Shown one piece after another: positions 12,001-21,000 of a DNA stretch of 64,000 nucleotides. The number at the start of each line of letters is the position of its first letter. Position 1 is the first letter of the stretch. The stretch covers positions 90,024,001 to 90,088,000 of the forward strand of contig JANJGN010000021.1 of the NCBI GenBank assembly GCA_026770705.1, given 5' to 3'. The position numbers are program-made. The DNA is from Isurus oxyrinchus. Its lineage: Eukaryota.

Positions 12001-15000
12001 TACAGGGCATTGGTGAGAATACATTCGGAATGTTGTGTACAGTTCCAATTTCGTTACTTAAAGAAATATGTAAATGCGTTAGAAGCAGTTCAGAGAAACC
12101 AGGAATTGTAAAACCAGGAATTGACGGGTTGTCCTATAAGGGAAGGCTGGACAGGTTATGCTTGTATACACTGGAACTTAGAAGGGTAAGGGACAACTTA
12201 ATTGAAACCTTTAAGGTTCTGAGGGATCTTGCCAGGGTGGGTGTGGAGAGGATGTGTCCTCTTATGGGAGAATCGAGAACTGTTTAAAATAAGCAGCCGC
12301 TCATTTAAGACATAACCCAGCTAATTTTTCACTCTCATTGCTTCGCAAGACTTTAGAAATCTCTTCCTCAGAAGGCAGTGGCAGCAGAGTCTTTGAATAT
12401 TTTTAAGGCACAGCTAGATAGATTATTGATTAAAAAGGGGGTGAAAACGTTATCGAGTGTAGGCAGGAATGTGGTGTTGAGGTTACATTCAGACCAGCTA
12501 TGATCTTATTGAATGGCGGAAAATGCTCGAGGGGTGGAATGTCATGTTCTGCTCCTGTTTCCAATGTCCCTATGTCCCAAAGCCATGGGAACATTCTTGT
12601 AAATCTTTCCTGAATCTCCAACGAAGTCTTTGACTTTTTCCCATAAATATGGCCACGAGTATTGGTCACAATACTCCAGCTGAGATCAAAGCATTGTTTC
12701 ATTAAGCTTCGTTCTGTTTCGGCAATTCATGCCTCGAAGCTATATAAAGACGACGATCGCGTGTGCTTTCTTAAACACTTTCTGAGCAGCTCTCAACAAC
12801 CAGCACCATGCATCCCCCACACCCTACAGCTTCCTTCAATGACTGGTACACGTTTAGCAATTTAACCCCAAGAACTCTCTGCTCCTGCGGCATTTATGAA
12901 TTGCACCACTTCGGTTATAATGCCTCTACTCTTCCTTCCTATAAAAAAAGTATCACTGTGCACATGTCTATTAAATATAATCCATTCTGCGCTCACCAAT
13001 CCACTTGTGCTTGAATCCACTTACTGCTTGAATTCTGTCACGATCTTCCTGACAGTAATGGCATCTATTGCTCTAGTGAACAGATATTGCAAATGAAATG
13101 AAGCATCCAGTTTTAGAGCGATAGAGAGGTCGACCGATTTGATTGTGGCGTGATGTAGACAGTATGAAACCCCAACGAACGTATTTTTAAATGCTCTTCA
13201 TTTACTTATATTTTGGCATCAAATTGCTTTGCTTCCTTCAATGTATAATCAAGGGTTTATGATTTTTCAAAGTATATCAGCTTCAGCTATTTATCGAGTT
13301 AAATATTATTTTATAAACACGCCTTTTTTTAAACAAGGAAAACGTTATTGCATTCTTGGCGAAGGAAGAGTTTCAAAGGTTTACGAAATTCTCGAAGTTG
13401 TAGAAATTACAGTATTGTATCTGTTTATCAATATTTAGTTGCTTTGTTCCAAGTATCCTGAAAAATACATTACGTCTGGTGAATTGCAGTACCCGATAAA
13501 AGCACATATACGAATTCAAAAAGAAAAACAACATATTCAAATGCAAACCATTTAGAATATTGGAAATATTTTCTGTTAGTTAATGACATTATCATAACTG
13601 CATATGTGTTAGATTGAATAAATTAGAAGAGCAAATGTGTGTAAAATTCTTATCCATCTGATTCTTAATTACTATAAGTATGGAAACGGCAAATGGAAAC
13701 TGCGGTGATAAATGCTTAAAACCTGTGGCTAACCTGCTGGTTTAGTTACCGAGGTTCGGCTAGTTATATAGTTCAACCAATGTTTATTGTTATTTCCCTT
13801 TTCTACTACTGGAGGACGTTAATACCTCTCAACTGTTATTGTCACTTAATGCACTTTATAAGGTTTACAAGCTTTCTTTTTTTTTAACTTCCTCATTCTC
13901 GGGATACGAGAATCGTTGGCATGCTTTGCCTGTCACGAATTCTCCAAACAAAGCACCCTGCTAAGCTAAAGTAAAGGGCAGTTAACAATCGAATATTAAA
14001 GGGCCAGCATGTTTCGGATGGCGGGATTTCCCTTCCCACCATCCAAAGAGCCGGCGGAGAACATTCTCGCCGATAATCCCTGGCCTGTAGTCATTTACGC
14101 TCCAATGAGCGTTGATTGGCTTCAGGCGGGGCTTCCGCCCTCAGCCTTGCCCATGCCACGCTAGAAGCTGCAGTGGACACTGCAAGAAATCCGTGCAACC
14201 TAAGCCCAGGGAGTCGTGGAACAGGTAAGTTTGAATGGTCTCCTTGCGGCGATGGTAGGTGAGGCCTGGTGAGGTAGATAGACGGGAGTTGCGGTGCCGG
14301 TCTAGCGGCGGGTGTTGGGGTTAGTTTTAGGGAGACGGCCCCCAATGTTAACGCAGAATGCTGATGGAGGCGCTCCCCCACTGCCTCGACTTCTCACCTG
14401 AGGTCTGGACTAGATAAAATGTCGGTTTCCCGTCTAAAACCGCTGATCCCCTCTTGCTGGTCTGAAAATTGAAGCTTTTCGGACAACAGCCCTTAAGTAA
14501 TTGGCCACTGAAATCCCTCAATTGGAGCCTCAAGGCCTCTCCCGTTCCAGCGTATAATTGTGGAGAGGTCGAGGCGGGCGGGAAAAATTCACGAGCATAT
14601 AATATCAGTCTGATTACTACTTCACACATTATTAAGTCCTACACTCTGGCCTATAGATCCATAACGATGCTCTTCGGCTGCATAAATTTAAGTCGCACAA
14701 TCCCTTACCGCTGCATAGAATGCCCGCCGTATGTTTACTTTACACACGCTGTGCAAAAGTTTAGTGGACGTTATTTGGTGCTGTTAAGCTAAAAGTTAAA
14801 CTGCATTGAAATCAGAATATGGGAAACGCACTTTTTTTTATAGAGGAATATCAAGAAGTATCAAAAAACGCAAAAAGTATTTACCGATTATGTAATTCAT
14901 TTTATCGCTTGTACAAATGCTGAAAGTTGTGCGGAGAACATACAGATATATTCGCACATTGTAATAGTTCAAATTGTACAAATATACAGTTCTGGGAGCT

Positions 15001-18000: not shown

Positions 18001-21000
18001 ATCAATTCTGCAAATTCCGAGAGCTGTGCAAGGAATATACGATACATTTCCATACTGTAATATTTTAAAATGTTCCACAAAATGTACAGTTCTGGAAGCT
18101 ATTTGAAGTTTAAAAATGAAAGCTCTGTTATTTGCATTCTTTTACTTCAACAGAAAACTTAGATTTACAAAGAGAAAAACAGTTTTTTTCTGGCGAAAAT
18201 CAATTTTCTGTCTTTGCCATCTCTATCATGTCTTCAAAAATATCTCGGCAGTCCTATCGTTTTAAAAATTAAATGGAATTAATTGGACCGAAATTAAACA
18301 TTAATCCTGTCTACACGATGGTAGACTTATCACATCGCATGTTAATAACACATAGTAAAAAGCACAAATTGATGCTAATTAATCAAATTTTCAAATAGGA
18401 AAGGATTAGCTGAGAAATAGAAAACCGCAGATGAAATGGAAGGCATAGATTGCAGATTGTTTAGATACATCGTTCTCTCCTGCAAATCCAGCCAATGATT
18501 AGATGACAGTTGATCCATTTTGTGCCTGACTTGTGTTGGAACTCAATTATTTGATTTGCTATTTTTTTTAGGCTCCAACTTTTTCAAAGAAAATTGAATA
18601 GATTTAATAGCCTGAAAAGGAATGCAATAAGTATAACTACATGTCTCCTTGCGAGTATGTAAAAAATCAATATAAATAAGAAAGTCGCAAAGATGAGCTC
18701 AAATGCTTCTGCTTTTGTTTGAAGAACCTGACATAGGTGTGAGGGAAACATTCATCGTTAACGTATCTTTGATATTCATGTTCCTTACTGACATATCCTA
18801 ATGTGATATCCACTCTCGCCTGTCTTCCCAAGGTTTATTTGTTCCAGAGTTGCCTTCAAAATTGCACCAGGCATATTCTGTCCTAACTCTTCATTCAAAA
18901 TTCACCACTTTACCTGTCTGCTGATTCAAAATTGCCACATGGCAATAATTTAACTTTGGCAGTGTCCGCAAACTTGTTTAAAAAGGGGAGTTTAGTTAAT
19001 GACTGCGCATAAGCTGCAAAATCTTAAATATGCATTAAACTGTATATTGGATAAAGGCACCATATCCCCTTAAGTTGAGTTGCAATCATTATTTCCACTG
19101 AGCGCAATTAAGGTAAATTTCGCAAGTGACCTAAAGTCAGCTACCAATTTGATGTTATCGATTTTAAATGTTGAACTACGTCATAGAGTAATCTAACGGT
19201 TCTAAGTGAAAGAAAATGAAAGCAACGCGTGGTATATTGTCAGGAATAATTGAGTTCGGCTTAAAAGGCTGAATATATATTATTCTTAACTGAAACATTC
19301 TAATCTAACAAGCATGCAACTAACTTCTCAACTTTTCCTAGCTGAAACTATGAAACATTTCTACTCATTTAGATAAGGAGCAGAACACTTTGTTGTTCAG
19401 ATAGTTGTGCAAATATGTTATTATGTAGGCAGAATTTATGTTTTACGTCATCAAAAGTAATAGAGCACAAATTGACGTCAATTTGATTCATGACACATTT
19501 TCAACGTATTTCAAATTTCAGCTACATTGCTTTGTTTGCAATATACGCAAGAAATGTGTTAAAAGTAAACTATTGTTTCCCCGATATCAATTGTGTAAAT
19601 CACAGTATATCGTTAGAGTCATTGTTGCATGTAAATTAAGTAGAGCTTGCAAAGTTTTCATTCTGGACAGAGAGCAAAGGAGCTGGAACTTCCCTTGATA
19701 CTCATTCCTATTCCGTGCTTTGATCTGGATAACAACTAAGCAGTGGGAATAAGAACTCTGGCAATATTTAAATTGAAAAGAGACAGCACTGAAAAGCAAA
19801 AGAGAAAGGTAACAGTTTAGAACAAAGTACTCTGAAGTATCATTTTGCTTTCAATTAGCGGAACATTAGATCTCTATTTCCGTTTTATTTTTAATTTAAT
19901 TGAAATTATTCGGATCGAGCAGACATATTCGCATGGTAGATAAATTTATAATTTTGGTTCCTGGGAAGACAGAACTAAATAATGGTTGATTACTGGTACG
20001 ATGTACATGTTACTGGAAGCGGATAAAACGAGCGAAGTAATAGACACTTTGACATCAATGAACTTTTCTGATTCTTTCTGTCACAATGATCACTTAATGT
20101 GTGCATATCGGCTTTTGAAAGGAAGTGGGAAAAAGGCGCTGCGATGTTCCTGTGACAGGCTTCCAGGATTCGTGCATGTTAATTTTCAGACATTAAAACC
20201 CTAAAAGTTTACTAATCAGTGACAAACATTATCGACTGGTTTGTATATATTTGCAGTTGGTTTAGGGATTTATTCTGGAGAGTAAATCCATAGTGGTAAT
20301 GTAAACTGCGTGATAACGTATCGTCAGCCAGTTTAACATTCCACCTGATTTTATTATTCTTTCACTTCCCTGGAATAGAGTTTCGCTTGGATTATCAGTT
20401 CGCTGGTGTTCAGTCTGCGCCATGATGCAAGATAAATTTCACTCTAACATTTGTATCAACATCAGAGCAATGTTAGGTAAACACTGAAATAATTGCAATA
20501 GCTGATGATCATCAGCGACCTATGTACTTTAAGGCATCGAATTAGTCCTTTATAATGAAACTCTTGGGGTTCAGAGCGAATTGCACAACTTTAAAATAAC
20601 TCCCATTATTCTTTCTTTTTAATCATGAACAAAAGGAACAATGACTGACGCAAGTGGAGGTATGTTCTCAGAATAATCGAATATGTGTATACATATTATG
20701 TATATGGAATCTGTTGGAAAAAATGTAATATGTGTTGCCTGTAATTTCTTTCACTTTATTGAGTTAACACTATCCAGTGTCGGATTCTGTGTGGAAGCTC
20801 GTGAAAACTATTCACAGACTTCCCAGCTGCAAGCTAAAAAAAAGGTTTAAGTTGATATTGGCTGAAACCATTGCATATACATTAAAGCGGAAAACAATTA
20901 ATCCTCTAGTGCTACGTAATTCCCTAAGTTCGAACTCAATACCAAAACACGGAGTAGGTATGGAATTTCAACTTTTCACCAGGGCATAAAGTTATTGATT

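What the first reader, a model, noticed from the sequence alone, without database searches (positions are those of the whole stretch)
14780..18840. Micro-exon birth by ~1 kb tandem duplication, with the exon more diverged than its introns
Seen: 14780-15790 and 17905-18840 are collinear diverged copies separated by a ~2 kb antisense CR1. Each carries a 12-nt AG/GT-bounded exon at the same position. The exons (CAAAACAGAATG vs AACCTGACATAG) share only 4 of 12 positions ungapped, while the flanking intron is readily alignable and exon length and splice sites are kept. Inference: this shows how the array grows, and hints at selection on exon size and splicing with relaxed or diversifying selection on content. 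Twelve nucleotides is a very small sample.
Basis: partly seen in the sequence, partly recalled or inferred. Interest (0 to 1): 0.72.

Follow-up and report, generated by a model that had tools for sequence, protein, structure and literature searches.

The report
Old tandem repeat carrying candidate micro-exon
A roughly 1.1 kb stretch that contains a 12-base, splice-site-flanked candidate exon has been duplicated head to tail long ago and later split by a jumping element, but whether the extra copies are ever spliced, or are under selection, cannot be shown from the sequence alone.

Summary
The duplication is real. 14899-15777 and 17996-18836 align collinearly (66% identity over 899 columns, E about 1e-55) and have no other match in the window.

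The anatomy needs correcting:
- The unit starts at 14668, not 14780, and the period is about 1111 nt.
- The 2.0 kb minus-strand LINE lies inside copy 2, about 95 nt after its start, not between the copies.
- A degenerate third copy probably follows. Its start is at 18887-19060. At 19795-19810 an AG + 12 nt + GT element matches copy A's at 14 of 16 positions.

Both 12-nt AG/GT segments exist and share 4 of 12 positions. Only A has strong splice signals; pairs as good as B's are not clearly above shuffle expectation.

The selection argument is weak. The low exon identity is a 1-8% tail event, and keeping AG, GT and spacing is a roughly 7% event. With the third copy as outgroup, the excess change is on B's side.

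Splicing, genome-wide copy number and gene identity could not be tested.

Verdict: tandem duplication shown, micro-exon plausible for A, selection claims unsupported. This is an ordinary kind of event and of modest interest.

The parts
14668..15780 (+). Copy 1 of the tandem unit (period about 1111 nt)
   Evidence: Core 14899-15777 aligns to 17996-18836. The start 14668-14747 aligns to 15781-15858.
15666..15677 (+). Candidate 12-nt micro-exon A: pyrimidine tract + CAG before it, GTGAGT after it
   Evidence: Read. Rough scores are 8.6 for the acceptor and 6.0 for the donor, the best pair on the + strand. Pairs this strong within 36 nt: 2 observed on + against 0.03 expected per strand in 100 shuffles. 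No transcript evidence.
15781..15876 (+). First ~95 nt of copy 2, upstream of the LINE insertion
   Evidence: 15781-15858 aligns to 14668-14747 with score 54; 0 of 300 shuffles and 0 of 394 real-sequence controls reach it. The end near 15876 is inferred.
15877..17899 (-). 5'-truncated, frame-shifted LINE inserted into copy 2 (about 2.0 kb; boundaries approximate)
   Evidence: Collinear RT-like reading-frame pieces on the minus strand. RVT_1 fragment at 16956-17141(-), E 9.8e-5. The 3' end region is shared with another LINE copy at 47460-47900. The offset between copies jumps from 1111 to 3111 nt across it.
17900..18846 (+). Remainder of copy 2
   Evidence: Homology to copy 1 ends near 18836-18846.
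18725..18736 (+). 12-nt AG/GT-bounded segment B, a weak exon candidate or pseudo-exon
   Evidence: Read. Scores are 2.3 for the acceptor (AAG) and 2.1 for the donor (GTGTGA). Stops in two frames; only the offset-2 frame is open. A second GT two bases on gives a 14-nt alternative.
18887..19060 (+). Start of a probable third, much more diverged copy
   Evidence: Aligns to 14670-14831 with score 44, against a control maximum of 37 (0 of 392). Further weak collinear matches lie at offsets 1098 and 1102 from copy 2. The 6-mer diagonal test does not pick it up.
19797..19808 (+). Exon-like 12-mer C with AG before and GT after; 10 of 12 identical to A; no pyrimidine tract upstream
   Evidence: It is the only other match in the window to A's AG+12+GT 16-mer at up to 3 mismatches, and it has 2. 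At up to 2 mismatches 0.09 matches are expected. It lies 1072 nt after B. Sequence read. Its flanks are not significantly alignable.
9000..9035 (+). Context: candidate 36-nt symmetric mini-exon (open in the offset-2 frame)
   Evidence: Flanks not homologous to the unit.
36233..36256 (+). Context: candidate 24-nt symmetric mini-exon
40921..40947 (+). Context: candidate 27-nt symmetric mini-exon
49012..49047 (+). Context: candidate 36-nt symmetric mini-exon
55128..55163 (+). Context: candidate 36-nt symmetric mini-exon with the second-best splice pair on the + strand
   Evidence: scores 8.2/5.9.

Best explanation
This is an old local tandem array with a period of about 1.1 kb. It has two clear copies and a degenerate third. 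It lies in an intron-dominated stretch of what looks like a + strand gene built from very small symmetric exons.

The duplicated unit contains one 12-nt cassette-type exon candidate together with its flanking intron. After the duplication a LINE inserted about 95 nt into copy 2.

Copy 1 keeps a strongly signalled micro-exon (A) and is the copy most likely to be spliced. Copy 2's version (B) has a weakened acceptor and donor and a heavily changed 12-mer. It is most likely a decaying pseudo-exon, or at best a weakly included one. Copy 3 keeps an A-like 12-mer with AG and GT but has no acceptor tract.

Shown: the duplication, its period, the position of the LINE, and the difference in signal strength.
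Inferred: exon status, the order of events, and which copies work.
For: Duplication:
- Searches give p = 0.278 over 817 aligned columns (Jukes-Cantor 0.35).
- A profile search finds no further copy.

Phase and LINE position:
- 14668-14747 aligns to 15781-15858 with score 54; 0 of 394 controls reach it.
- Offsets are 1111 nt before and 3111 nt after the LINE.
- RT pieces lie on the minus strand.

Third copy:
- (0 of 392 controls).
- (offsets 1098, 1102, 1072).
- (the only other match to A's 16-mer; 0.09 expected at up to 2 mismatches).
- (unit 1 against 18860-19950 beats 566 of 566 control segments, z about 2.6).

A is strong and B is ordinary:
- One search gives the scores.
- pairs at A's level occur 2 times on + against 0.03 expected. 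Pairs at B's level occur 13 and 11 times against 7.75 +/- 3.4.

A gene of symmetric mini-exons on +:
- 7 of 8 regex hits on + have lengths divisible by 3, against 2 of 5 on -. My arithmetic gives P about 0.003 for 7 or more of 8 at a rate of 1/3.
- The two best splice pairs are both on + and both open in the same offset-2 frame.

Parsimony over the three 12-mers (my reading): 6 changes on B's side and 2 on A's.
Against: - No transcript, ortholog or genome-wide copy count could be consulted, so exon status is unproven for all three copies.
- B keeps AG, GT, the 12-nt spacing and 14 of 19 pyrimidines upstream. It is open in the frame the other candidates use, so a working weak exon is not excluded.
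- Retention of AG/GT/spacing has an empirical base rate of only 5 of 68, or 2 of 68 under strict alignment. That leans mildly towards constraint on B.
- The third copy is weak. It is not seen by the 6-mer diagonal test or by the profile search. Its exon flanks are no better than controls (124 of 392 and 377 of 392 controls reach its score). Copy 2 against it is unremarkable (14-38 of 568 controls as good).
- With relaxed thresholds, phase-compatible candidates are barely commoner on + than on - (6 against 4).
- My splice scores use rough frequencies recalled from general knowledge, not a trained model.
Confidence: 0.55

Rival explanations
1. One reading: both A and B (and perhaps C) are working alternative micro-exons, kept in size and splice sites while their content diversifies.
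For: AG, GT and the 12-nt spacing are kept in three copies. All three are open in the offset-2 frame shared with the other candidates (my reading for C). Retention has a base rate of about 7% (5 of 68). B's 12-mer changed more than its flanks (4 of 12 against about 70% flank identity).
Against: B's signals are no better than about a dozen chance pairs per strand. C has a purine-rich stretch with several AGs where the acceptor tract should be. The low identity extends into the acceptor region and includes a 12-nt indel, so it is not exon-specific. Twelve bases cannot carry a selection test.
Confidence: 0.17
2. None of the 12-mers is an exon: a neutral intronic or intergenic tandem repeat that happens to contain a splice-like motif.
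For: AG-N12-GT[AG][AT]G occurs 14 times on + and 15 times on -. No host-gene protein family was found among 150 of the 158 reading frames of 70 aa or more. Exon-containing reading frames found nothing meaningful among solved structures. Identity along the unit is fairly flat (0.46-0.78), with no conserved peak at the exon.
Against: A's pair of signals is far beyond chance (0.03 expected per strand; 0 of 100 shuffles reach the observed 2). The + strand excess of lengths divisible by 3 (7 of 8) and the shared frame argue for real mini-exons. A and C are 14 of 16 identical amid poorly alignable flanks.
Confidence: 0.2
3. The unit is a member of a dispersed repeat family (a transposable element or a piece of one), not a local duplication.
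For: The window is full of repeats. Only 64 kb could be searched.
Against: There are exactly two clear copies, head to tail, at a constant period, with a partial third directly following. No other match exists in the window. The unit has no reading frame with a family match.
Confidence: 0.05
4. The direct repeats are an unusually long target-site duplication made when the LINE inserted.
For: At first sight the LINE sits at the junction of the two copies.
Against: Copy 2 starts at 15781, about 95 nt before the LINE, and resumes after it. The LINE is therefore inside one copy and is not flanked by the repeats.
Confidence: 0.01
5. The unit is a repeat of a small-RNA host gene, with the conserved product lying in the intron, which would explain exons less conserved than introns.
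For: The exon is less conserved than the flanking intron between A and B.
Against: No Rfam family reaches its gathering score in the window. The best match in 14500-19100 is E 0.57 and lies in the LINE. There is no block of very high identity; the highest 50-column identity is 0.78.
Confidence: 0.02

Closest known systems
Tandem exon duplication giving cassette or mutually exclusive exon arrays (surveyed for human genes in PMC9741552; I saw the listing, the start of the abstract and two passages)
   Same: An exon is copied together with its flanking intron, head to tail. The copies keep length and frame.
   Different: Known cases rest on transcript and protein evidence and mostly concern ordinary-sized exons whose sequences stay alignable. 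Here the exon is 12 nt, one copy has weak signals, one lacks an acceptor tract, and no transcript evidence exists.
Arrays of alternatively spliced mini-exons in fast skeletal troponin T (PMC2447309, abstract passage; avian P exons in PMC7581897, passages)
   Same: Several very small, same-phase, alternatively spliced exons lie in a row. In birds there are up to seven repeated P exons encoding repeated motifs.
   Different: Nothing here resembles the acidic or His-Glu-rich troponin T segments, judged from my reading of the peptides and not by any search. The gene is unidentified. Only this one unit shows duplication.
Neuronal microexons of vertebrates (3-27 or 3-30 nt; definitions seen in the abstract starts listed)
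   Same: Size, length divisible by 3, and strong flanking signals for A. TGC motifs lie just upstream of the pyrimidine tract in A and B. That these motifs matter is recalled knowledge, not a test.
   Different: Those microexons are defined by deep conservation and neural, factor-dependent inclusion. Neither could be tested here.
Micro-exon genes of schistosomes (recalled; no paper consulted)
   Same: Coding sequence spread over many symmetric exons of a few to about 36 nt.
   Different: A different animal group and secreted products. Here it is only a resemblance in gene layout among unverified candidates.

Membership tests
Tandem exon duplication | Adjacent homologous copies comprising the exon plus flanking intron | tested here: met
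   two copies at a period of about 1111 nt. Probable third copy.
Tandem exon duplication | Each copy has usable splice sites | tested here: inconclusive
   A is strong (8.6/6.0) and B weak (2.3/2.1). B's level is not clearly above shuffle expectation. C lacks a pyrimidine tract.
Tandem exon duplication | Same length and reading phase in the copies | tested here: met
   All are 12 nt between AG and GT and open in the offset-2 frame. B also has a 14-nt alternative via a second GT.
Tandem exon duplication | Copies seen in transcripts (co-included or mutually exclusive) | not testable with these tools
Vertebrate neuronal microexons | Length 3-27 (or 30) nt, frame-preserving | tested here: met
   12 nt.
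Vertebrate neuronal microexons | Deep conservation and neural, factor-dependent inclusion | not testable with these tools
   No orthologous loci or RNA data could be reached.
CR1-clade LINE | LINE-type reverse transcriptase | tested here: inconclusive
   RVT_1 fragment at E 9.8e-5 and 22.6 bits, below the 29.6-bit gathering score. Collinear RT-like pieces. A protein search with 17145-17555(-) found nothing.
CR1-clade LINE | Placement in the CR1 clade by RT phylogeny or a family consensus | not tested
No repeat library or reference RT set is at hand.
LINE long target-site duplication | The direct repeats abut both ends of the element | tested here: not met
   About 95 nt of copy 2 precede the LINE.
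Small-RNA host-gene repeat unit | A known small-RNA family inside the unit | tested here: not met

The most novel reading that the evidence does not exclude
This is a three-unit tandem array of 12-nt cassette exons in a gene made of symmetric mini-exons. All copies remain spliceable. One copy (B) has been rewritten at about three times the flanking rate while keeping exact length, frame and splice dinucleotides. That would be a directly visible case of a micro-exon being born by duplication and then diversifying.
Probability: 0.12. Interest if true: 0.55.

Novelty: new member of a known kind. Interest (0 to 1): 0.3.

Why it matters
If A, and any of its copies, are truly spliced, the locus would be a clear example of how tiny frame-preserving exons multiply by local duplication of exon plus intron. 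It would also show what happens to the copies afterwards: one kept, one rewritten, one losing its acceptor. Micro-exons are hard to annotate and their origins are little documented, so a dated, three-copy series would be a useful teaching case. As it stands it is an ordinary old intronic tandem duplication with one good exon candidate.

Tried and rejected
Gene identity:
- No reading frame containing a candidate exon reaches 40 aa, so that tool could not be used exon by exon.
- Four exon-containing contiguous reading frames were searched against solved structures. One gave a single meaningless hit (E 0.45) and the other three gave none.
- Pfam on 150 of the 158 reading frames of 70 aa or more found only RT fragments. 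The last 8, beyond 61304, were not scanned.

LINE clade: a protein search with 17145-17555(-), 'longer' setting, found nothing.

Other copies of the unit:
- The profile search and the 6-mer diagonals find none beyond A and B.
- A possible copy upstream of 14668 was rejected: 37 of 392 controls score as well, and 14000-14595 looks like a GC-rich insertion.

Homology between the flanks of the other candidate mini-exons and this unit: none. The only other raised scores are the pair 49012/49833 (z 5.8), whose flank windows overlap, plus 49833/55128 (z 3.9) and 9000/36233 (z 3.5), which I did not examine.

Rejected mechanisms: small-RNA host idea and long target-site duplication.

A first global-alignment scan with harsh scoring was uninformative.

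Not done: the genome-contig collection holds bacteria and archaea only and was not used.
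Full report
**What the window is.** The window is 64 kb with no N and about 40% G+C. It is full of decayed reverse-transcriptase fragments and old interspersed repeats. No host-gene protein family was found among 150 of the 158 reading frames of 70 aa or more. From recalled LINE motifs I take it for a non-human vertebrate, possibly a cartilaginous fish, but this was not tested.

**The observation.** blastn aligns 14899-15777 to 17996-18836 on the same strand. 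Identity is 66.07% over 899 columns and E is 1e-55 to 6e-54.
- My global alignment of the core has 817 aligned columns, 227 mismatches (p = 0.278, Jukes-Cantor 0.35), 20 indel events and 86 gap columns.
- A profile built from the two copies finds nothing else in the window; the best other hit has E 2.4.
- Both copies carry AG + 12 nt + GT at corresponding places, 15666-15677 and 18725-18736.
- Ungapped, the 12-mers share 4 of 12 positions.

**Corrected anatomy.**
- 14668-14747 aligns to 15781-15858 with score 54. Shuffles give 20.2 +/- 3.3 and 0 of 300 reach it. The maximum is 33 in 394 real-sequence controls from the window.
- Copy 2 therefore starts at 15781, directly after copy 1 ends, and the period is about 1111 nt.
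- The offset between the copies is 1111 nt before the LINE and 3111 nt after it. That is a clean insertion of about 2000 nt roughly 95 nt into copy 2.
- The inserted element has collinear RT-like reading-frame pieces on the minus strand. One piece matches Pfam RVT_1 (E 9.8e-5, below the gathering score).
- Its 3' end region is shared with another LINE copy at 47460-47900.
- 'CR1' itself was not tested. A protein search with one of its reading frames found nothing.
- Because the repeats do not abut the element, a long target-site duplication is excluded.

**A probable third copy.**
- The first ~170 nt of the unit recur right after copy 2. 18887-19060 aligns to 14670-14831 with score 44, and 0 of 392 controls reach it, the control maximum being 37.
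- Two further weak matches lie at the same offset from copy 2, at 1098 and 1102 nt.
- At 19795-19810, 1072 nt after B, lies AG + 12 nt + GT that matches A's 16-mer at 14 of 16 positions. It is the only other match in the window on either strand at up to 3 mismatches. Expected counts are 0.09 at up to 2 mismatches and 1.31 at up to 3.
- Unit 1 aligned globally to 18860-19950 beats all 566 control segments, though only at z about 2.6.
- Against it: the 6-mer diagonal test and the profile search do not see this copy. Its exon flanks are no better than controls. Copy 2 against it is unremarkable. A three-way alignment shows little beyond the 16-mer.
- I take the third copy as probable, not proven.
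- An upstream copy was rejected. 14000-14595 looks like a GC-rich insertion.

**Are the 12-mers exons?**
- With a rough position-weight score (frequencies recalled, not trained), A scores 8.6/6.0 for acceptor/donor. This is the best pair on the + strand. B scores 2.3/2.1.
- Pairs at A's level within 36 nt occur 2 times on + and once on -, against 0.03 per strand in 100 dinucleotide shuffles. Pairs at B's level occur 13 and 11 times against 7.75 +/- 3.4.
- B has an AAG acceptor, a GTGTGA donor and a second GT two bases on that would make a 14-nt, frame-breaking version. It also has stops in two of three frames.
- C has a purine-rich stretch with several AGs where the acceptor tract should be.
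- A is therefore a good candidate, B a weak one, and C not a normal acceptor.

**Gene context.**
- A strict splice-pattern scan gives 8 hits on + and 5 on -. Lengths are divisible by 3 in 7 of 8 on + against 2 of 5 on -. My arithmetic gives P about 0.003 for the + strand.
- Candidates at 9000-9035, 36233-36256, 40921-40947, 49012-49047 and 55128-55163 are all open in the same offset-2 frame as A and B. They encode short helix-like, charged and leucine-rich peptides.
- With relaxed thresholds the strand difference fades to 6 against 4.
- None of these candidates has flanks homologous to the unit, so the pair does not show how any wider set arose.

**Gene identity.** The gene could not be identified.
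- Every candidate exon, and every reading frame containing one, is below the 40-aa minimum of the large protein search.
- Four such frames gave nothing among solved structures.
- The joined spliced model was left out.

**Is the exon more diverged than its introns, and is there selection?**
- 4 of 12 is low against about 65-71% elsewhere. However, 67 of 892 twelve-column windows of the core (7.5%) are as low, or 7 of 602 ungapped windows (1.2%). A binomial gives 0.7-2.4%.
- The dip is not confined to the exon. The 50-column window around the acceptor is at 0.46 identity and holds a 12-nt indel, and two other stretches are as low.
- The alignment inside the exon is ambiguous. MAFFT and my aligner each place gaps there.
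- AG is retained at 17 of 36 sites and GT at 13 of 46.
- Of 68 AG-N(3-36)-GT pairs in copy A, 2 keep both ends and spacing under strict alignment. With 3 nt of slack, 5 do. Retention in B is thus a roughly 1-in-14 event: mildly suggestive, not evidence of selection.
- B's pyrimidine count (14 of 19) is what I calculate neutral decay of A's 15 would leave.
- If C is accepted as outgroup, parsimony puts 6 of the changes on B's side and 2 on A's (my reading). A then looks ancestral and B is the outlier, either decayed through small indels or rewritten.

**Mechanism.**
- Most likely a segment of about 1.1 kb of intron carrying a 12-nt cassette exon was duplicated in tandem. Recurrence of the unit's first ~170 nt after copy 2 fits either a third copy or unequal crossing-over between flanking repeats; this is inference.
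- A LINE later landed in copy 2.
- Copy 1 kept a working exon and the other copies lost strength.
- The divergence (0.35 substitutions per site) makes the event old. I give no absolute date, because the lineage's rate is unknown to me.

**Comparison with what is known.**
- Tandem exon duplication is a well-described route to alternative exons. For PMC9741552 I saw the listing, the start of the abstract and two passages, none of which addresses micro-exon duplication.
- Rows of same-phase mini-exons are known in fast troponin T (PMC2447309, abstract passage). They include up to seven repeated avian P exons (PMC7581897, passages).
- I found no paper on birth of a micro-exon by tandem duplication in the one search aimed at it. 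That single search is not enough to claim it is unpublished.

**What stayed unchecked.**
- Transcript evidence.
- Copy number of the unit in the source genome.
- Orthologous loci.
- LINE clade.
- Gene identity.

**Verdict.** The duplication is real and better defined than reported. The micro-exon reading is plausible for A only. The selection claims are not supported. The finding is a new instance of a known kind of event and is of modest interest.

Noticed in passing
window 9000-9035, 36233-36256, 40921-40947, 49012-49047, 55128-55163 (+): Splice-flanked segments of 24-36 nt, all divisible by 3 and open in the same offset-2 frame, encoding short charged, leucine-rich peptides. This looks like a + strand gene made of tiny symmetric exons spread over more than 46 kb. 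The gene was not identified.
   Followed up: partly
window 15271-15291, 18363-18383, 19465-19483 (+): The best-conserved block of the unit (50-column identity 0.78 between copies 1 and 2) recurs in weaker form at the expected place in the probable third copy. Function unknown.
   Followed up: no
window 2312-3074 vs 4016-3277: A large inverted repeat, 73.6% identical over 773 columns, with arms about 200 nt apart. Splice-like candidates on both strands here (2411-2488 +, 3860-3916 -) encode similar peptides, so they are probably part of a repeat element.
   Followed up: no
window 14000-14595: A GC-rich block directly upstream of the AT-rich tandem unit that looks like an inserted repeat. A weak resemblance of its end to the unit's end was not significant (37 of 392 controls score as well).
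   Followed up: partly
window 11370-12530 vs 37664-38813; 6239-6988 vs 56964-57901 and 62893-63076: Several families of old LINE-like repeats at 66-85% identity. RVT_1 fragments lie at 6065-6496(+), 11328-11609(+), 33146-33595(-) and 46976-47284(+). The LINE inside copy 2 matched none of them in the word-size-11 self-blast at E 1e-5. It shares only its 3' end region with the copy at 47460-47900, found by a 20-base motif search and alignment.
   Followed up: partly
window 49833-49844 (+): Another 12-nt AG/GT-bounded segment with a GTGAG donor but a poor acceptor score (-0.1). It ends in T, so joining it to the next candidate exon would create a stop codon. Probably not an exon.
   Followed up: partly
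window 15239-15250 and 18330 region (+): A second AG-N12-GT motif inside copy 1 whose counterpart in copy 2 keeps AG but has GC for GT. It illustrates how such motifs decay between the copies.
   Followed up: no
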